Shown in pieces: positions 40,297 through 47,997 of a DNA stretch of 64,000 nucleotides. The DNA comes from Euryarchaeota archaeon UBA171 (GTDB lineage: Archaea > Thermoplasmatota > Poseidoniia > Poseidoniales > Thalassarchaeaceae). Every line of letters starts with the position of its first letter. The stretch's first letter is position 1. The position numbers were made by a program, and so were the translations under genes. The stretch is taken from NCBI GenBank assembly GCA_002497295.1, contig DANO01000039.1, positions 16,405-80,404 on the forward strand, written 5' to 3'. The notes below the pieces were generated by a model that had not been told where the DNA came from, ran no database searches, and saw only the letters and a list, made by a program, of their open reading frames with translations.

Positions 40297-41289
40297 TCAC
40301 TGAAGCGCCTCGCCCATAGTCTTGTAGTGTTCAAAGTCCTCTGATTGGGTAAAACTTTCAATTTCAGAGGCAGGCAGATCGCCCAAAACTTCGTTGATAA
40401 GTGCAAAGAAGTCTCTTCTCTCATCTTCAGGAGTGTGGTGTGGATCTGTTCCAACACGCTTGTATAACTCGTATGCATCTGATTCAGTAAAGGATTCAAT
40501 GAATTTAGAACTTTGATTCCCTAGAAGCGTATCTACTATGCTGAAGAGCCTCGCGAAGTCGTCATTCGCTTGCTTTAGTCTTGTTATGGCTGCCGCAAAC
40601 TCATCGAATTCCATTGTTCCGCTATCATCAACATCAGCAGTTTGGAAGAAATCAACCAACTCGTCCTCTTCAAATGATGATAACATTTCAGCGCTTATAC
40701 CCGTTGCGTCTGATACTTTCTGAATGAATGCTGGTTCATCCATGGAGTGAATGAATTCATCAAGCGTGAGATGGTCCGTGTCCTTGGGCTTCTCAATAAG
40801 CTGTACTTTGGGAGCAATATCCCTCACAACCTGTTGTTGCTCCTTCCTCATGACTATGATCTCCCTGTCCAATTCTGTTCCAAACCTATCAGAGAATCTA
40901 TTGATCAATGATCCTCTATCTCCCTTTGCGATTCTGTCTATGTGGCCATACATCCCATCAAGACCTTCGGAGCCTATGTTGGCAGCTTTCCTGGCACTCC
41001 ATAGCGACTCTAGGTCTTCTTCTGCTGGATCTTTGTTTTTGTCAGGCCATTCATGATCATACTCTCCCAATTCAGGTGTTGTGACCGTTCCCCTGCCGCC
41101 TCCAATGGGTACAAGGCTGTCAAAGTCCTCATTGGGGAGGTTTTGAGGTGGGGGAGGGGGCACAATAGGATTACCCTGAGAATCCATCGGAGGAGGCGGC
41201 GGGGGCGGAGGGGTAGGAGGTAATTTCCCCTTCTTCTTACGTCTCGGGATTAGGCCCATGGCATGGCCTGAGTCAATTCCGTGTTTCAA
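40297..41289 (-). CDS. polyproline + EF-hand protein with C-terminal tandem ~33-aa repeat, unknown function
   Basis: 330 aa. It has PPTPPPPPPPP and VPPPPPQ tracts and a canonical EF-hand loop DVDDSGTMEFDEF. Two C-terminal repeats end in IESFTESDAYELYKRVG / IESFTQSEDFEHYKTMG. Confidence 0.55.
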   Translation of the reverse strand: MKHGIDSGHAMGLIPRRKKKGKLPPTPPPPPPPPMDSQGNPIVPPPPPQNLPNEDFDSLVPIGGGRGTVTTPELGEYDHEWPDKNKDPAEEDLESLWSARKAANIGSEGLDGMYGHIDRIAKGDRGSLINRFSDRFGTELDREIIVMRKEQQQVVRDIAPKVQLIEKPKDTDHLTLDEFIHSMDEPAFIQKVSDATGISAEMLSSFEEDELVDFFQTADVDDSGTMEFDEFAAAITRLKQANDDFARLFSIVDTLLGNQSSKFIESFTESDAYELYKRVGTDPHHTPEDERRDFFALINEVLGDLPASEIESFTQSEDFEHYKTMGEALQ

Positions 41290-42539: not shown

Positions 42540-42734
42540 TCATTCCATCCTCAGGCCTGGGACCGTTTTTGGCTCTGTGGAGGGCTCCGCTCCAGTCAGT
42601 TCCAGATAGGCCTCGTACGACAGATACTCGCCGTCATGAACTATCGCCTCTGAGAATTTCAAGGGCTTTCCGGTCTGGGCGCACTTTGGGCCTAGTTGAC
42701 CAGTAGCGGTAGATAGCTTCTCAGCATCGGGCAT
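42540..42734 (-). CDS. small hypothetical protein upstream of priS
   Basis: The track ORF (92 aa) would start 5 nt from the divergent mqnD start, so the internal start MPDAEK (42734) is more plausible. I recognise no family. Confidence 0.35.
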   Translation of the reverse strand: MPDAEKLSTATGQLGPKCAQTGKPLKFSEAIVHDGEYLSYEAYLELTGAEPSTEPKTVPGLRME

Positions 42735-42823
42735 GTATTGCCCAACGAGCACAGATACTTCATGGTGGCGATTGTCACGGAGTCTGCCAAGGCAATTTAT
42801 ACAACCTAAGCAGCCCACGTGCT

Positions 42824-43681
42824 ATGACGACTCATTACAGCATAGGCCATTCACCAGATCCAGATGATGCATTCATGTTCTATGCCATGACTGAGTCATT
42901 GATAGATACGGGTGACAGGCGATACGAGCACGCCCTCGTAGACATACAGACGCTCAATCAACAAGCTCTTGATGGTGCGCATGATGTAAGTGCTGTCTCG
43001 ATACACTCCTACCCGACAATTTCCAATAACTACTCATTGATGAATTGCGGAGCTTCGATGGGAGAAGGATATGGACCGATGATAATATCTACTACACAAT
43101 CTTCAGTTGAAGAGGCCTCTGAATCTACGATTGCAATTCCAGGACTAGGCACTTCTGCTTATCTAGCATTGAGGCTCGCCTTAGGTGACGTGAATGTAGA
43201 AGTTATGCCATTCGATGAAATTCTTCCCTCAGTGGCATCTGGAAAATCAACTCATGGCTTGATTATTCACGAAGGGCAATTGACTTGGAAAGATGAAGGG
43301 GTTCACCTGGTGCTAGATCTGGGCGTATGGTGGAATGAAAAAACAGGTCTTCCACTACCACTGGGGGGGAATGTAGTGCTAAAATCTCATGGTCCAGAAA
43401 TGTGCGAGCATATCGCCACTGACGTGAGGCACTCCATAGAGCATGCTATATCTAATCCTGAATCTGCACTGTCATTTGCTAAAAAATGGGGCAGGGGGAT
43501 ATCGGATGAAACTAACGAAAAATTCGTTGGGATGTATGTTAATCAACGAACTATCGATTACGGGGACGACGGGAGGGAGGCTGTGATGAGATTCTTAGAA
43601 GAAGGGCAATCAATCGGGTTGGTTGACTCGAACTTTGACCCTCGAGCCATCGATTTCATAGGCAGGACGCATGGTCGATAA
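42824..43681 (+). CDS. mqnD: MqnD-like 1,4-dihydroxy-6-naphthoate synthase (MqnA/MqnD periplasmic-binding-like fold)
   Basis: 285 aa. GHSPDPDDAFMFYA....ID.........DIQTLN..AL.G..DVSA.S resembles the MqnD N-terminal pattern (SPCPND.F.F..L....DIE.LN). Confidence 0.7.
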   Translation: MTTHYSIGHSPDPDDAFMFYAMTESLIDTGDRRYEHALVDIQTLNQQALDGAHDVSAVSIHSYPTISNNYSLMNCGASMGEGYGPMIISTTQSSVEEASESTIAIPGLGTSAYLALRLALGDVNVEVMPFDEILPSVASGKSTHGLIIHEGQLTWKDEGVHLVLDLGVWWNEKTGLPLPLGGNVVLKSHGPEMCEHIATDVRHSIEHAISNPESALSFAKKWGRGISDETNEKFVGMYVNQRTIDYGDDGREAVMRFLEEGQSIGLVDSNFDPRAIDFIGRTHGR

Positions 43682-43684
43682 AAC

Positions 43685-44164
43685 ATGGATAAGCCAGAGA
43701 TATCCGAGTTCGATTCTGTTGACCCAGCACCTGCGAGTGAGATACTATCAGTGCCAAGCTTGAGACAGACAATTTGTGATGAAAATGAAAGAATGTTTCA
43801 AAGAATGAGAGCTCTTTTCGCATTGAGGAATATCGGTGGTGTTGAGGCTGTCGAAGCTCTTGCCGCCGCCTACTCTTCCAAATCAGCCCTCCTAAAGCAC
43901 GAGATTGCATATGTGATGGGGCAAATGCAAGACCCTGCAGCAGTACCACATCTCATCCATCGTCTCGAGGATCAAGATGAAGATCTCATGGTACGTCATG
44001 AGGCTGCGGAAGCCCTGGGGGCGATTGGAGATAGAGTCGCTTTGGCCACGTTAGAGAAATTCGTAGGCGATCCAGAACCTGTTGTCGCAGAGTCCTGTGA
44101 AGTTGCAATGGACCTGCTAGAGTACGTCGCATCCAAATCCTTAGACTACGAAGTAACTGATTGA
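43685..44164 (+). CDS. single-module deoxyhypusine-hydroxylase (DOHH/Lia1)-like HEAT-repeat protein, half the eukaryotic length
   Basis: 159 aa. It has SVDPAP, RMRALFALRN.GG, SALLKHEIAYVMGQMQD, AAVP.L, MVRHEAAEALGAIGD and PVVAESCEVAMDLLEY. Each has a near-identical counterpart in human DOHH as I recall it. There are two His-Glu pairs instead of four. Confidence 0.7.
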   Translation: MDKPEISEFDSVDPAPASEILSVPSLRQTICDENERMFQRMRALFALRNIGGVEAVEALAAAYSSKSALLKHEIAYVMGQMQDPAAVPHLIHRLEDQDEDLMVRHEAAEALGAIGDRVALATLEKFVGDPEPVVAESCEVAMDLLEYVASKSLDYEVTD

Positions 44165-44952
44165 ATACATCCAAGAGCTGCACCGGCATCCATCCCACAA
44201 ACATCTACAAGGAATCTTGCAAGCCCCTCCACAGACTGGTCATCGAGTATGTTGGAAACCTCCGAACGGAAGTACTGGTCCATTCTGCTGGGGGTTAGCC
44301 CTATCTTATCGGCAGCGATCCTGACTACTTCTTCCCTCCTATTATTGTCATTGATAAAGGCCCGGTAGTTTGAGATTAGCTCTGTCTTAGCTTCCAATAT
44401 ATCTTGATTATTTGATGACTTGTGTGTGGCGAAAATACCGAAGACCATTGGAAGGCCTGTTGAACGGGTCCATTCCGCTCCAAGATCCAATTGGACCAGA
44501 GACGGATGTTCAGAAGCTGCCCTCAATGCTCTGTCCCCTATGAGAAGAGCCCCGTCACATTGTTGGAGCATGGAACCCAAATCTGGTCCTAGGTCTATTG
44601 CACGGGGGTCTAGTCCCCGTTTGTCCAAATACCATCTTAACAATCTTTTTGAGGTGGAGGAATCGGTTGGGAATGCTATATCTCTCATGTGATCCGGTGG
44701 GCGATCCCCGAACAGAAGTACACTTCCAACATGACCCATCGAGACAATTCCTAGATCGCCGACTAGACGTAGGATGTCGCTATGCTTCGCGAAATCGGCA
44801 GATGGTATAGGGGCCATTAGGCAGTCCCTTCGAAGTACATGCCCCGTCAACCACGAAGGGGGAGCAGGCAGAATCCGCCATTTTTCTGACAGGTTGTGGT
44901 ACAAAGGATCGCAGTTTGTAAATGCGACACGCCCTATGGTCCTGTTCCACAT
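44146..44952 (-). CDS. mqnA: MqnA-like chorismate dehydratase (futalosine pathway)
   Basis: 268 aa of the MqnA/MqnD family. It has the N-terminal I.RV.F.N..PL....., and a later DLG..W....GLP.VF pattern. Confidence 0.65.
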   Translation of the reverse strand: MWNRTIGRVAFTNCDPLYHNLSEKWRILPAPPSWLTGHVLRRDCLMAPIPSADFAKHSDILRLVGDLGIVSMGHVGSVLLFGDRPPDHMRDIAFPTDSSTSKRLLRWYLDKRGLDPRAIDLGPDLGSMLQQCDGALLIGDRALRAASEHPSLVQLDLGAEWTRSTGLPMVFGIFATHKSSNNQDILEAKTELISNYRAFINDNNRREEVVRIAADKIGLTPSRMDQYFRSEVSNILDDQSVEGLARFLVDVCGMDAGAALGCIQSVTS

Positions 44953-44956
44953 ATTA

Positions 44957-46132
44957 TCACCTCACTACTGGTAGTGCCCTCGGTCCTGAATGGTTTTTCA
45001 AAGTGTGTGATCTGAATTTGGTATATGTCGTGTTTCTTTGGACAGCCTCTTGTCCCGTGGATTCTATCATGCGTACCAAGCCCTCCAAGCCTGTGTTAAG
45101 GGGGGTGCTCGAACCTGCAGAGTGCATGATTTCCTCTTTCTCAACAGTTCCATCCAGATCATCGGCTCCATTGAGGATCGCTAGAGATGCTAGATCGTCT
45201 CCAATGTTCATCCTGTAAGCCTTCAGATGAGGTATATTATCAAGCATTAATCTGGATATGGAGATAGTTCTGAGGACCTCTTCTGCACTTGGTATCTTTG
45301 CCTCTGGTAAACGTGTTTTATCAGGCAGAAAAGGATATGGTACAAAGCATTGGAATCCAGAAGTCTCGTCCTGTAATCTCCTAAGCAAATCCAGATGTGT
45401 GATTCTGTCTCTAAGCGTTTCAACGGTACCGAACAACATGGTACAATTCGTCGGAAGTCCTGCTTCATGAGCTGATCTGTGGATTGAAAGATACTCGAGA
45501 CTAGATTCTTTACCCCTGCAAATTCTATCTCTGACTGAATCTACGAGGATCTCTGCACCTCCACCAGGAATAGCGTCCAAACCTGCATCCATCAAACGAG
45601 TCAGAGTTTGAGGTATAGTTATCCCAGTACGTTTGGCGATGTGTTTGATTTCAACCGCAGTTAGAGATTTGATCGTAATGTGTGGAAATTCTTTCTTCAT
45701 GGCCCTGTATAGATTTTCATAGTGGTCAATAGTCCATTCAGGGTGAAGTCCTCCGACTGAATGTACTTCATCGATAGATTCCGAATATGGGCGTACGCGA
45801 TCCAAATATTCTTCTACTGACAAGTAATACGCATCTTCATGCTTCGAGCCTTTCCTAAACGCACAGAACCTACAAGCTAGAACGCATATATTGGTAGTAT
45901 TGACATGTAGGTTTAGATTGAAATGTATCTTTTCTCCGTGCATTTTCCTCTTCACTGAATGGGCTAATTCGCCGAGTTGCAATAGGGGCGCATGTTTGTA
46001 TAGCGACAAGCCCAAATCAAAATCGATTCGACCCCCTTCGGAAATGATTATCCGGGCGCGAGCCATGGCTTCATTGCCTTCTAAATCACCCATATTGGGT
46101 TCCAGCGGCATAGCGCCGCTGTCATTATGCAT
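44957..46132 (-). CDS. radical-SAM enzyme of the MqnC/MqnE/CofH family (cyclic dehypoxanthinyl futalosine synthase or aminofutalosine synthase)
   Basis: It has the N.TNICVLACRFCAF radical-SAM cluster motif and family-typical downstream regions (GG.HP, GLD..PGGGAEI). I cannot distinguish C from E by eye. The start is uncertain; the track ORF extends to 46204. Confidence 0.75.
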   Translation of the reverse strand: MHNDSGAMPLEPNMGDLEGNEAMARARIIISEGGRIDFDLGLSLYKHAPLLQLGELAHSVKRKMHGEKIHFNLNLHVNTTNICVLACRFCAFRKGSKHEDAYYLSVEEYLDRVRPYSESIDEVHSVGGLHPEWTIDHYENLYRAMKKEFPHITIKSLTAVEIKHIAKRTGITIPQTLTRLMDAGLDAIPGGGAEILVDSVRDRICRGKESSLEYLSIHRSAHEAGLPTNCTMLFGTVETLRDRITHLDLLRRLQDETSGFQCFVPYPFLPDKTRLPEAKIPSAEEVLRTISISRLMLDNIPHLKAYRMNIGDDLASLAILNGADDLDGTVEKEEIMHSAGSSTPLNTGLEGLVRMIESTGQEAVQRNTTYTKFRSHTLKNHSGPRALPVVR

Positions 46133-46231
46133 GGTATTCCTCTCTAGACCCCTATCTATAACTGAATGGCTAACTCCATAGCAACCAAAACGATAGGTAA
46201 CCAATAAAGACTGATAGAATCACGTGAGTAC

Positions 46232-47047
46232 ATGCAGAGTGACGCCATAGAGGAATTGAATGAGTCTGCATTAAGGTGTAGAAGGAGGATTGTCGAAATG
46301 GTATACAAGGCCCAATCCGGCCATCCGGGCGGCTCCTTATCTTGTATAGACATCCTTGTGGGCCTATACAGAGGCGTTATGCGATTTGACCCAGAGAAAC
46401 CCAGCTGGGGCGATCGTGATAGATTTATCATGAGCAAAGGGCATGCTAGTCCTGCAGTATACTCGATACTGAGAGATGTAGGAGTTCTTGAGGATTCAGA
46501 TCTAGATGGTTTCAGATCACTTGGATCTGTATGTCAGGGCCATGTTGACAGGAAGTGGACAGAAGGGGTCGACTTCTCCGCAGGCAGTCTGGGCATGGGG
46601 CTTTCATTTGGACTTGGATCGGCACTTGCAGCCAGACTCGATGTATCTGATAGGCATGCATGGGTATTGTTAGGGGATGGCGAGATACAAGAAGGCCAGA
46701 TATGGGAGGCGGCTATGGCCGCATCTCATCTTGAGGTGACTAATCTCACTGCGATAATCGATAGGAATAGAATCCAGAATGATAATTTCGTAGAAGATCA
46801 GATGAGAGTCGGGGACGTAGCCTCAAAATTCCGCTCGTTTGGATGGAATGTTATCGAAATTGATGGGCACGATATGAAGGAGATTGTTAATGCTCTTTCT
46901 GAGGCGAAGGCGAGTGTCGGGCCTACTGCTATTGTGGCAGCGACAGTAAAGGGGAAGGGAGTCTCCTTCATGGAAGATAATCCCGCTTTCCACGGAGCTG
47001 CTCCAAATGAAGATCAGTATGCTGAGGCAATGGAGGAATTGTCATGA
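46232..47047 (+). CDS. transketolase, N-terminal (TPP-binding) subunit
   Basis: 271 aa. It has SGH.GGSLS..D, KGHA.PA.Y and the GDGE..EG..WEA motif. Confidence 0.92.
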   Translation: MQSDAIEELNESALRCRRRIVEMVYKAQSGHPGGSLSCIDILVGLYRGVMRFDPEKPSWGDRDRFIMSKGHASPAVYSILRDVGVLEDSDLDGFRSLGSVCQGHVDRKWTEGVDFSAGSLGMGLSFGLGSALAARLDVSDRHAWVLLGDGEIQEGQIWEAAMAASHLEVTNLTAIIDRNRIQNDNFVEDQMRVGDVASKFRSFGWNVIEIDGHDMKEIVNALSEAKASVGPTAIVAATVKGKGVSFMEDNPAFHGAAPNEDQYAEAMEELS

Positions 47048-47997
47048 CCGGAATATCGGAGCCAGGAGCGTCAAGAGATGGATATGGCGATGCATTACTT
47101 GATTTATCCTCTGATAAGAGAGTTGTAGTTCTAGAGGCGGACCTTGGAAAGTCCACCAAATCCTGCCACTTCAGAGCGCAGTATCCGGACAGAACGTTCT
47201 GTCTTGGCATAGCTGAACAGAATATGGCACTTGTCGGAGCGGGTCTTGCAGAAGCCGGCAAGATCCCCTTCGCGAGTACTTTCGCGATATTCTCCGAACG
47301 AGCCTTTGAGCAGTTTAGAAACGGTATAGCTAGGACAGGGCTCGTTGTGCATCTCTGCGGTAGTCACGGTGGTATGCATACTGGGCAAGATGGAAGCAGT
47401 GCTCAGTCTACTGAAGATCTTGGCATCTTCAGGACCCTTCCGGGAATGACTGTGATGCATCCATGTGACAGAAACTCGGCACGATCCTTGACCCGCAATC
47501 TCCTCAGTCATGATTACCCATCTTACACCAGAACTGCCCGTAATAAAACTAGAGAAATATATTCCGAGGCAGAGGCAGATAATTTGGAGATAGGTGTCGC
47601 ATCTGAGTTGAGGGCTGGCGAAGATGCGACGATAATCGCATGTGGCGTAATGGTGGAGCGATCGCTGGATGCTGCAGAAGAGCTCTCAAATCACGGCATA
47701 GAGGCACGAGTAATTGATATGCATACCTTAAAGCCGATCGATAAAGATGCGATTCTCAAAGCAGCAAAGACCGGGGCTATAGTAACCGCAGAAGACCATT
47801 CAGTTATCGGCGGACTCGGTTCTGCAGTTGCTGAAATACTATCAGAGGAATGTCCAACAAGGATGAAAATGGTCGGAGTTAGAGATAAATTCGGTGAAAG
47901 CGGATCTCCAGAGGAAATCATGAATAAGATGGGGCTGACTTCCGAGAATATAGTTCAAAGAGTGATGGAATTAGTACAAAAACCTGGGCGTACTTGA
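47044..47997 (+). CDS. transketolase, C-terminal (pyrimidine-binding) subunit
   Basis: 317 aa. Motifs seen: G.AEQNM...AGLA..GK.PF..TFA.F, then G..G.SHQ..ED-like, then MHT.KP.D. It overlaps the N-subunit by 4 nt. Confidence 0.92.
   Translation: MTGISEPGASRDGYGDALLDLSSDKRVVVLEADLGKSTKSCHFRAQYPDRTFCLGIAEQNMALVGAGLAEAGKIPFASTFAIFSERAFEQFRNGIARTGLVVHLCGSHGGMHTGQDGSSAQSTEDLGIFRTLPGMTVMHPCDRNSARSLTRNLLSHDYPSYTRTARNKTREIYSEAEADNLEIGVASELRAGEDATIIACGVMVERSLDAAEELSNHGIEARVIDMHTLKPIDKDAILKAAKTGAIVTAEDHSVIGGLGSAVAEILSEECPTRMKMVGVRDKFGESGSPEEIMNKMGLTSENIVQRVMELVQKPGRT

What the first reader, a model, noticed from the sequence alone, without database searches (positions are those of the whole stretch)
43685..44164. 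Half-length, single-module homologue of eukaryotic deoxyhypusine hydroxylase (DOHH) in an archaeal genome
The 159-aa product shows long strings that are almost identical to eukaryotic DOHH as I recall the human sequence. SVDPAP matches the inter-lobe linker. RMRALFALRN.GG, SALLKHEIAYVMGQMQD and MVRHEAAEALGAIGD match HE-motif segments. ESCEVAMDLLEY matches ESCEVALDMYEH. Eukaryotic DOHH is about 300 aa. It consists of two symmetric HEAT-repeat lobes, each contributing two His-Glu pairs to a di-iron site. This protein has exactly one lobe with two His-Glu pairs (HE-IAY, HE-AAE), and it combines features of both the N- and C-lobes. A homodimer could rebuild the four-HE di-iron centre, so this would be a 'pre-duplication' form of the enzyme. 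To my knowledge archaea are regarded as lacking a recognisable DOHH, although some contain hypusinated aIF5A. A bona fide archaeal DOHH-like gene would therefore be notable. Its placement 3 nt after mqnD raises the alternative that it hydroxylates something other than aIF5A.
Basis: partly seen in the sequence, partly recalled or inferred. Interest (0 to 1): 0.72.

Follow-up and report, generated by a model that had tools for sequence, protein, structure and literature searches.

The report
Half-size archaeal deoxyhypusine hydroxylase homologue
Marine Group II archaea carry a strongly conserved 159-aa gene that is exactly one of the two lobes of the eukaryotic enzyme that finishes the hypusine modification of translation factor 5A, and published reviews say archaea have no such enzyme.

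Summary
ORF 43685..44164 (+) encodes a 159-aa HEAT-repeat protein that matches human DOHH (PDB 4D4Z) at E=2.4e-70, far above generic HEAT proteins. It aligns to both lobes. Its two His-Glu pairs (H72/E73, H105/E106) and G79 fall on the residues reported to bind iron and substrate.

It is a real gene. It occurs in at least 89 Poseidoniales species, always about 160 aa, always directly after mqnD, with dN/dS about 0.02-0.03. No second lobe lies nearby. A published MGII pangenome table lists this auto-annotated "DOHH" cluster as core to MGIIa and MGIIb, and deoxyhypusine synthase in 97-99% of genomes, but the text never discusses it.

Cross-validated lobe-specific HMMs place the archaeal lobe midway between eukaryotic N- and C-lobes (delta +1.9 bits, against -29.6 and +34.6). 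It scores as high as true members on both models. That fits an undifferentiated, ancestor-like lobe rather than a recently captured C-lobe.

A head-to-tail tandem model superposes on human DOHH (TM 0.94), but its alignment contained eukaryotic DOHHs.

Most likely it is a homodimeric di-iron hydroxylase acting on deoxyhypusinated aIF5A. Dimerisation, iron binding and substrate are inferred, not shown.

The parts
43685..44164 (+). Single-lobe DOHH homologue, 159 aa plus stop codon (four HEAT hairpins)
   Evidence: ORF. Human DOHH at E=2.4e-70. Pfam HEAT_PBS and HEAT_2. At least 2131 relatives, the top 120 of them about 159 aa. dN/dS 0.023-0.027.
43709..43732 (+). N-terminal F-x-S-V-D-P-A-P motif (aa 9-16). 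It matches the inter-lobe linker that precedes the C-lobe of eukaryotic DOHH.
   Evidence: Aligns to human 153-158 SVDPAP. F9, S11, V12, D13, P14, A15 and P16 are invariant in 18 MGII sequences. N-lobes lack the motif.
43898..43903 (+). His72-Glu73, the first His-Glu motif
   Evidence: Aligns to human H56-E57 and H207-E208. Invariant. Roles of the human residues are taken from PMC9117371.
43919..43921 (+). Gly79, equivalent to human G63/G214 (reported to bind the deoxyhypusine side chain)
   Evidence: Invariant in MGII sequences and in all 37 rows of alignment A2. Role from PMC9117371, which prints G65 for the N-lobe glycine.
43997..44002 (+). His105-Glu106, the second His-Glu motif
   Evidence: Aligns to human H89-E90 and H240-E241. 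Invariant.
44132..44161 (+). C-terminal tail SKSLDYEVTD (aa 150-159), which resembles the C-lobe tail (S/D)x(F/L)(Q/E)Y of eukaryotic DOHH
   Evidence: Alignment of lobes. S150 and Y155 are invariant in MGII.
42824..43681 (+). mqnD-like gene (VitK2_biosynth), 3 nt upstream on the same strand and probably co-transcribed
   Evidence: Pfam PF02621 at 2e-65. Immediately upstream in every locus with enough flank (79 of the 80 GTDB loci), and in the P0234 loci L081-L084.
44146..44952 (-). Convergent mqnA-like gene (VitK2_biosynth). Its 3' end overlaps the DOHH-like ORF by 19 nt.
   Evidence: Pfam PF02621 at 2.4e-42. Coordinates. Synteny.
44957..46204 (-). MqnE/MqnC-like radical SAM gene of the futalosine cluster
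   Evidence: TIGR03700 MqnE 394 bits (cutoff 434.55) and TIGR03699 MqnC 346 bits (cutoff 428.1). Radical_SAM plus CofH_C.

Best explanation
The gene encodes a functional single-lobe member of the deoxyhypusine hydroxylase lineage. Each 159-aa chain is one four-HEAT-hairpin lobe. It carries two His-Glu motifs (H72/E73, H105/E106) and the conserved Gly79.

Shown: specific homology to DOHH; ligand-for-ligand alignment with both eukaryotic lobes; single-lobe length throughout Poseidoniales; strong purifying selection; deoxyhypusine synthase present across the clade.

Inferred: two chains pair around a two-fold axis in the way the N- and C-lobes pair in the eukaryotic enzyme. Each chain supplies the ligands for one iron (His72, His105, Glu106). 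[quoted passage not shown] The gene is translated from the same transcript as mqnD.

On origin, the lobe is undifferentiated, neither N-type nor C-type in its core. It therefore most likely left the eukaryotic DOHH lineage before the two lobes had diverged, either before the duplication or very soon after it.
For: Homology and ligands: 4D4Z at E=2.4e-70, both lobes aligned, HE pairs on H56/E57, H89/E90, H207/E208 and H240/E241. These residues and G79 are invariant. Their roles in the human enzyme come from PMC9117371.

Single-lobe architecture: the top 120 relatives are about 159 aa. Among the best 150 representatives at 50% clustering, only two clusters are short and the DOHH-like rest are about 300 aa with two matching stretches. 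The named two-lobe relatives are eukaryotes. No second lobe occurs in the window or in 80 loci. P0234 is an orthologue, not a partner.

Functional constraint: dN/dS 0.023-0.027. The protein is 70-97% identical across loci, against 43-70% for most neighbouring genes in the more distant loci.

Pathway context: DHPS in 153/158 and 91/92 MGII genomes, and the DOHH cluster in 119/158 and 72/92. aIF5A is used as a near-universal archaeal single-copy marker.

Dimer compatibility: the tandem model has pLDDT 91.7 and pTM 0.89, and superposes on 4D4Z at TM 0.94 and rmsd 1.2 A over 286 columns.

Origin: cross-validated HMM delta is +1.9±2.5 bits, against -29.6±8.2 for N-lobes and +34.6±7.5 for C-lobes. 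The lobe scores high on both models. It has 17 C-type and 20 N-type columns. Composition is native. No specific eukaryotic donor stands out.
Against: There is no biochemical evidence for iron binding, dimerisation or activity.

The confident tandem model used an alignment of eukaryotic two-lobe DOHHs, so the inter-lobe geometry may be inherited from them. The single-sequence run was poor (pLDDT 66, TM 0.36-0.38).

MGII aIF5A was not retrieved here. DHS and aIF5A are not in this window or in the loci.

The invariant coupling to mqnD inside a futalosine cluster could point to a different substrate.

On origin, the termini (FxSVDPAP and the tail) and three clean diagnostic residues (F38, S137, V140) are C-type. 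The bootstrapped NJ tree is unresolved, with the archaeal clade next to C-lobes in about 65% of replicates. The gene is so far seen only in one archaeal order.
Confidence: 0.6

Rival explanations
1. Same fold and same di-iron chemistry, but a different substrate. On this view it hydroxylates an intermediate or product of the futalosine/menaquinone pathway, or otherwise serves quinone biosynthesis, as its operon partner suggests.
For: The gene lies 0-30 nt downstream of mqnD on the same strand in every MGII locus examined (one locus has a 74-nt gap). This holds even where the downstream region is rearranged by a WD40 gene insertion. It is flanked by mqnA-like and MqnE/C-like genes. Its occupancy across MGII genomes tracks mqnD (119/72 against 124/75).
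Against: The known futalosine route needs no hydroxylase (my own knowledge of the MqnA-E, MqnP, MqnL/M and MenG steps). There is 44-53% identity to eukaryotic DOHH over the whole lobe, and the residues reported to bind the deoxyhypusine side chain (E73, E106, G79) are invariant. That is more conservation than a change of substrate would be expected to leave. No HEAT-repeat enzyme acting on a small molecule is known to me. Synteny within one order can be inherited rather than functional.
Confidence: 0.12
2. On origin: it is the C-terminal half of a two-lobe DOHH acquired from a crown-group eukaryote, then truncated. Selection on a homodimer later made it symmetric again, so it now looks intermediate.
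For: The N-terminal FxSVDPAP linker motif, the C-terminal tail, and F38, S137 and V140 are C-lobe characters. phmmer and MAFFT prefer the C-lobe register. NJ places it with C-lobes in about 65% of replicates. DOHH-like genes were seen only in Poseidoniales among archaea.
Against: The core delta is about 0 and lies outside the C-lobe range of +12 to +49.5. The N-model score (165.8 bits) exceeds that of real N-lobes (154.9) and is far above C-lobes (139.7), while the C-model score stays near that of real C-lobes. That pattern is typical of ancestor-like sequences, not drifted ones. M41 is invariant where 72 of 73 C-lobes have Tyr and N-lobes vary. Identity to animals, fungi, plants and oomycetes is roughly equal. 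GC3 is native. The gene is core in both MGIIa and MGIIb.
Confidence: 0.28
3. It is one subunit of a heteromer. It would pair with a second, more divergent HEAT lobe encoded elsewhere in the genome, rather than with itself.
For: Only about 12 kb per genome was inspected. A lobe at 30-40% identity would fall below the 150 representatives and 120 hits I could see.
Against: tblastn found no second lobe in the 64-kb window or in 80 loci, even at E=10. The only divergent short cluster, P0234, occupies the same locus in other genomes and is therefore an orthologue. Tully's pangenome lists a single DOHH cluster, GC_00000488. The lobe's intermediate N/C character is what a self-pairing lobe would show.
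Confidence: 0.07
4. It is a non-catalytic HEAT-repeat protein, such as a scaffold, an iron-binding protein or an aIF5A-binding protein, that keeps the DOHH fold without hydroxylase activity. A variant of this view is a monomer using its 2-His-1-carboxylate set as a mononuclear iron site.
For: A single lobe cannot form the di-iron site alone. Nothing here shows that it dimerises.
Against: Every catalytic and substrate-binding residue is invariant across at least 60-97% sequence divergence, and dN/dS is about 0.02-0.03. The two-lobe arrangement is sterically compatible.
Confidence: 0.05

Closest known systems
Eukaryotic deoxyhypusine hydroxylase (human DOHH, PDB 4D4Z/4D50; yeast Lia1; EC 1.14.99.29, KEGG K06072)
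   Same: It has the same HEAT-hairpin fold and 44-53% identity to each lobe. The His-Glu motifs and the GQ glycine sit at the same positions. The FxSVDPAP segment and the C-terminal tail are shared with the C-lobe. A tandem of two copies superposes at TM 0.94 and 1.2 A.
   Different: It is half the size: four HEAT hairpins and two His-Glu motifs per chain, against eight and four. It would need to self-associate to form a di-iron site. Its core is neither N-type nor C-type. It is encoded in an archaeal futalosine gene cluster. No activity has been demonstrated.
PBS-lyase-type HEAT repeat proteins (Pfam PF03130/PF13646: CpcE/CpcF, NblB, E. coli YibA, M. thermautotrophicus MTH187/1TE4) and the artificial alphaRep proteins derived from them
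   Same: The repeat type is the same. Pfam sees only these generic repeat models. Small single-domain archaeal HEAT proteins of similar size exist, such as MTH187 at 131 aa.
   Different: These score far lower: 15-27 bits for natural members and at most 49 bits per stretch for alphaRep, against 110-131 bits per DOHH lobe. NCBIfam lyase models lie far below their cutoffs. I know of no report of paired His-Glu iron motifs at these positions in those proteins (my own knowledge; not tested here).
Pseudo-symmetric enzymes thought to descend from homodimers by duplication and fusion (general evolutionary model)
   Same: The eukaryotic enzyme is described as a symmetric dyad of two four-repeat arms (PMC8153317). 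This protein looks like the single-arm stage of that model.
   Different: An apparently undifferentiated single-arm form is extant and abundant here, rather than merely inferred. The direction of descent is not established.

Membership tests
Deoxyhypusine hydroxylase (DOHH/Lia1) | HEAT-repeat alpha-helical hairpin fold | tested here: met
   Pfam HEAT_PBS at 1.6e-17 and HEAT_2 at 5.5e-17. The model shows eight helices per copy. Foldseek top hit is 4D4Z.
Deoxyhypusine hydroxylase (DOHH/Lia1) | Sequence similarity specific to DOHH, above generic HEAT proteins | tested here: met
   238.6 bits and E=2.4e-70 to 4D4Z, against at most 49 bits per stretch for alphaRep and 15-27 bits for natural PBS-HEAT proteins. 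It scores 166-168 bits on held-out N- and C-lobe HMMs, as high as real lobes.
Deoxyhypusine hydroxylase (DOHH/Lia1) | His-Glu motifs at the iron-ligand positions | tested here: met
   H72/E73 and H105/E106 align to H56/E57 and H89/E90, and to H207/E208 and H240/E241. They are invariant in all aligned sequences.
Deoxyhypusine hydroxylase (DOHH/Lia1) | Four His-Glu motifs and eight HEAT repeats in one chain (two-lobe dyad) | tested here: not met
   The protein is 159 aa with one lobe and two His-Glu motifs. All orthologues are 156-164 aa. No adjacent second lobe exists.
Deoxyhypusine hydroxylase (DOHH/Lia1) | Residues reported to bind the deoxyhypusine side chain (E57, E90, E208, E241, G63/65, G214) | tested here: met
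   The equivalents E73, E106 and G79 are invariant. The residue list comes from PMC9117371.
Deoxyhypusine hydroxylase (DOHH/Lia1) | Binds two Fe per active site and forms a peroxo-diiron(III) intermediate | not testable with these tools
   Only a compatibility model of a tandem is available, and its alignment contained eukaryotic DOHHs.
Deoxyhypusine hydroxylase (DOHH/Lia1) | Hydroxylates deoxyhypusine on (a/e)IF5A | not testable with these tools
   This needs biochemistry or mass spectrometry.
Deoxyhypusine hydroxylase (DOHH/Lia1) | Co-occurs with deoxyhypusine synthase and IF5A | tested here: met
   This is met at clade level only. DHPS is in 153/158 and 91/92 MGII genomes, and aIF5A is used as a near-universal archaeal marker. 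Neither is in this 64-kb window or in the loci, and MGII aIF5A was not retrieved.
PBS-lyase HEAT proteins (CpcE/NblB type) | Full-length match to a lyase or NblB family model | tested here: not met
   NblB scores 38.1 bits against a cutoff of 300. CpcE scores 29.1 bits against a cutoff of 330.
Futalosine-pathway (Mqn) enzymes | Homology to a known Mqn enzyme | tested here: not met
   Only HEAT families are hit.
Futalosine-pathway (Mqn) enzymes | Conserved gene-cluster linkage with mqn genes | tested here: met
   mqnD lies immediately upstream in every locus with enough flank, and mqnA-like and MqnE/C-like genes lie downstream.

The most novel reading that the evidence does not exclude
The Poseidoniales protein may be a living representative of the homodimeric, single-lobe stage from which the pseudo-symmetric two-lobe eukaryotic DOHH arose by duplication and fusion. 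If so, hypusine hydroxylation existed in, or was exchanged with, an archaeal lineage before LECA. It would also make MGII the first archaea with an identifiable DOHH.
Probability: 0.3. Interest if true: 0.85.

Novelty: new variant of a known kind. Interest (0 to 1): 0.7.

Why it matters
Reviews state that no DOHH orthologue has been found in archaea, even though some archaea contain hypusine. This finding puts a concrete, abundant and easily expressed archaeal candidate on the table.

It also offers a rare natural single-arm version of a pseudo-symmetric di-iron enzyme. The step from homodimer to fused dyad, and how two identical lobes bind one asymmetric protein substrate, could therefore be tested directly.

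If it is active, Marine Group II archaea, among the most abundant planktonic archaea, would make fully hydroxylated hypusine using an O2-dependent enzyme.

It does not explain hypusine in Sulfolobus or Thermoplasma, where no such gene was seen.

The automatic label 'deoxyhypusine monooxygenase' already sits in IMG and in a published supplementary table. What is new is recognising the half-size architecture, its intermediate N/C character and its implications.

Tried and rejected
(1) A single-sequence AlphaFold run on the tandem gave low confidence (pLDDT 66) and TM 0.36-0.38 to 4D4Z. It is uninformative.

(2) I designed an unbiased alignment for the dimer test. It held tandems of archaeal homologues plus eukaryotic lobes paired at random in all four orders, and it aligned correctly. 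Two earlier designs failed because MAFFT placed free lobes, or window-plus-lobe chimeras, in the wrong register.

(3) The NJ bootstrap tree of 90 lobes is unresolved: archaeal clade 95/100, N clan 50, C clan 25. With three clades the unrooted topology cannot separate pre-duplication from post-duplication, so I switched to lobe-specific HMM scoring.

(4) Looking for DHS and aIF5A, tblastn and a motif search found nothing in the window or loci. A profile of four PDB aIF5As returned only thermophile proteins among the 120 listed.

(5) Supplements of Rinke 2019 and Meheust 2022 had no relevant entries. Tully 2019 did.

(6) A scan of viral contigs found no DOHH-like lobe.

(7) Literature searches found nothing on DOHH with Asgard, Marine Group II, Poseidoniales or Thermoplasmatota.

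(8) Considered and rejected: a truncated pseudogene (dN/dS about 0.02-0.03, uniform length, core gene); eukaryotic contamination (archaeal neighbours on contigs up to 1.6 Mb, native GC3); and a generic PBS-lyase HEAT protein (scores).
Full report
**Observation.** It begins 3 nt after the stop codon of a VitK2_biosynth (MqnA/MqnD family) gene at 42824..43681. All the quoted strings are present, and there are exactly two His-Glu pairs, H72/E73 and H105/E106.

**Is it DOHH-like or just a HEAT protein?** Pfam sees only generic HEAT_PBS and HEAT_2 repeats. NCBIfam lyase models are far below their cutoffs (NblB 38 bits against 300).

A search of all PDB sequences puts human deoxyhypusine hydroxylase (4D4Z) first at E=2.4e-70. 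There are two separate alignments. Residues 23-149 align to the N-lobe (109.5 bits). Residues 4-151 align to the inter-lobe linker plus the C-lobe (130.9 bits). The next hits are artificial alphaRep proteins, at no more than 49 bits per stretch. Natural PBS-type HEAT proteins score 15-27 bits.

The two His-Glu pairs fall on H56/E57 and H89/E90, and equally on H207/E208 and H240/E241. G79 falls on G63/G214. According to PMC9117371, these are the four strictly conserved motifs. H56, H89, E90, H207, H240 and E241 anchor the di-iron centre. E57, E90, E208, E241 and two glycines bind the deoxyhypusine side chain. All equivalents are invariant in the archaeal family.

**Distribution and reality of the gene.** The large protein database holds at least 2131 relatives. 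The best 120 are all about 159 aa at 76-96% identity. Several carry the automatic JGI name 'deoxyhypusine monooxygenase' or the NCBI name 'HEAT repeat domain-containing protein [Candidatus Poseidoniales/Thalassarchaeaceae archaeon]'.

A scan of one genome per GTDB species found the gene in 89 species. Of the 80 loci kept, all but one (titled 'uncultured bacterium') carry Marine Group II, Poseidoniales or generic archaeal MAG titles, and all 80 share the MGII synteny.

An exhaustive HMMER search at 50% clustering shows only two short clusters among the best 150 representatives: P0129 (159 aa) and P0234 (161 aa, 62% identity). The other DOHH-like hits are about 300 aa with two matching stretches at 42-53% identity. 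Where these are named they are animals, fungi, plants and oomycetes.

P0234 sits in the same primase, mqnD, HEAT-lobe locus in other MGII genomes. It is therefore an orthologue, not a partner lobe. No second lobe exists in the window or in 80 loci, even at E=10.

For the two closest comparable pairs, dN/dS is 0.023-0.027; synonymous sites are saturated for the rest. Across the loci the protein stays 70-97% identical, whereas mqnD falls to 59-70% and the primase to 43-57% in the more distant loci. GC and GC3 match the neighbours.

**Pathway context.** Neither DHS nor aIF5A lies in this window or in the loci. My profile search for MGII aIF5A returned only thermophile proteins.

The 'MGII Core' sheet of Tully 2019 (Supplementary Data 10) fills this gap. 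It lists deoxyhypusine synthase in 153/158 and 91/92 genomes. It lists a single cluster annotated by GhostKOALA as 'DOHH; deoxyhypusine monooxygenase' in 119/158 and 72/92 genomes. By that paper's criterion this is core to both MGIIa and MGIIb. The occupancy resembles that of mqnD (124/75). The main text of that paper never mentions hypusine or DOHH.

aIF5A is used as a near-universal archaeal single-copy marker. Reviews from 2016 and 2021 state that no DOHH orthologue has been found in archaea. T. acidophilum and Sulfolobus are reported to contain hypusine. My literature searches found no paper linking DOHH with MGII, Poseidoniales, Thermoplasmatota or Asgard.

**Gene neighbourhood.** In every locus with enough flank, mqnD lies immediately upstream on the same strand. 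Downstream lie a convergent mqnA-like gene, whose 3' end overlaps by 19 nt in the window, and an MqnE/MqnC-like radical SAM gene. In a subset of genomes a 786-aa WD40 gene is inserted downstream, yet the mqnD link is kept. This conserved coupling is the main argument for a different, quinone-related substrate.

I rate that rival low, for three reasons. The known futalosine route needs no hydroxylase (my own knowledge). The residues that bind deoxyhypusine are invariant. And 44-53% identity to eukaryotic DOHH across the whole lobe suggests that the protein substrate interface is retained.

**Can two copies make the enzyme?** A head-to-tail tandem of the protein mimics the eukaryotic chain, because the natural N-terminus is the linker. 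Folded alone it gave a poor model.

With an alignment of 42 eukaryotic two-lobe DOHHs the tandem folds at pLDDT 91.7 and pTM 0.89. It superposes on 4D4Z at TM 0.94 and 1.2 A over 286 columns.

That alignment carries eukaryotic inter-lobe covariation. The result therefore shows steric compatibility of identical lobes with both positions. It is not independent evidence for a homodimer.

**Origin.** I split 73 two-lobe proteins at the linker and aligned N-lobes, C-lobes and ten archaeal lobes. Over 138 shared columns the archaeal lobes are closer to N-lobes (40.5%) and to C-lobes (43.7%) than those are to each other (35.4%).

The N-terminal FxSVDPAP motif, the C-terminal tail and three clean diagnostic residues are C-type. 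A bootstrapped NJ tree keeps the archaeal clade together (95/100) but does not place it. With three clades an unrooted tree cannot distinguish pre-duplication from post-duplication in any case.

The most informative test used five-fold cross-validated HMMs of N-lobes and C-lobes on 126 core columns, with linker and tail excluded:

| Sequences | n | N-model (bits) | C-model (bits) | C minus N (bits) | Range |
|---|---|---|---|---|---|
| Held-out N-lobes | 71 | 154.9 | 125.3 | -29.6±8.2 | -48.3 to -14.4 |
| Held-out C-lobes | 73 | 139.7 | 174.3 | +34.6±7.5 | +12.0 to +49.5 |
| Archaeal lobes | 10 | 165.8 | 167.7 | +1.9±2.5 | -3.8 to +5.9 |

The archaeal lobes fall outside both ranges. They score higher on the N model than real N-lobes do, and nearly as high on the C model as real C-lobes.

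Column by column they are a mosaic, with 17 C-type and 20 N-type columns. A typical C-lobe has 45 and 8, and a typical N-lobe has 10 and 46. F38, S137 and V140 are C-type. M41 is invariant at a position where 72 of 73 C-lobes have Tyr.

High scores on both models are what an ancestor-like sequence gives. A drifted C-lobe would lose C score without gaining N score. I therefore favour a lineage that separated before the lobes differentiated, either before the duplication or shortly after it, and in any case before the common ancestor of the sampled eukaryotes.

The alternative is capture of a crown-eukaryote C-lobe followed by selection-driven re-symmetrisation. It is not excluded, and the restriction to one archaeal order supports it. 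No viral carrier was found. I could not see hits ranked below the top 150 representatives, so more divergent half-size forms in other archaea are not excluded.

**Verdict.** This is a genuine, selectively maintained, single-lobe homologue of DOHH that is core to Marine Group II archaea. The most likely mechanism is a homodimeric di-iron hydroxylase that completes hypusine on aIF5A (confidence about 0.6). Dimerisation, iron binding and substrate are inferred. It is a new variant of a known enzyme kind. Annotation pipelines already tag it, but I found no paper that recognises or discusses its half-size architecture.

Noticed in passing
window 40297..41289 (-): A 330-aa protein with poly-proline runs near its N-terminus (PPPPPPPP at aa 27, PPPPP at aa 44) and weak EF-hand hits. 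It holds the only long poly-Pro tracts among 57 window ORFs. Poly-Pro stretches are the sequences whose translation depends on (a/e)IF5A. A proteome-wide count of poly-Pro motifs in MGII against other archaea might explain why they keep a DOHH.
   Followed up: partly
window 42540..42818 (-): A 92-aa Cys-rich ORF (MGCLGCINCLG...) lies between the primase and mqnD. It has no Pfam hit but is conserved in 77 of 80 MGII loci. A 64-aa gene is called at the same place in the P0234 loci.
   Followed up: no
window 44146..44164: The 3' ends of the DOHH-like ORF (+) and the convergent mqnA-like gene (-) overlap by 19 nt in the window and its closest relatives. In more distant MGII genomes the two genes are 20-80 nt apart.
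   Followed up: partly
L081 8542..10902; also L037, L040, L041, L045, L050, L053, L055, L057-L059, L061: A subset of MGII genomes has a gene of about 2.4 kb, encoding a 786-aa WD40 beta-propeller protein, inserted between the DOHH-like gene and mqnA-like. The mqnD-to-DOHH-like junction is untouched.
   Followed up: partly
window 44957..46204 (-): This radical SAM protein scores between MqnE (394 bits, cutoff 434.55) and MqnC (346 bits, cutoff 428.1), below both NCBIfam cutoffs. Its step in the futalosine pathway is therefore ambiguous.
   Followed up: no
window 42824..43681 (+) and 44146..44952 (-): Two paralogous VitK2_biosynth (MqnA/MqnD family) genes flank the DOHH-like gene. NCBIfam names neither of them. 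I did not test them.
   Followed up: no
L015 and L024 (MAG UBA105, contigs DALV01000106.1 and DALV01000070.1): One MAG holds two contigs that each carry a copy of the gene (80% and 78% identity to the window) with identical synteny. This looks like two strains binned together rather than paralogues.
   Followed up: partly
window 46232..47047 and 47044..47997 (+): The transketolase is split into N-terminal and C-terminal genes that overlap by 4 nt.
   Followed up: no
Tully 2019 (PMC6336850), Supplementary Data 10, sheet 'MGII Core': Several other eukaryote-style KEGG labels appear as MGII core functions, for example 'APC6, CDC16', 'DHX57' and 'ADARB'. These may be GhostKOALA over-assignments or further eukaryote-like genes in MGII. 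I did not examine them.
   Followed up: no
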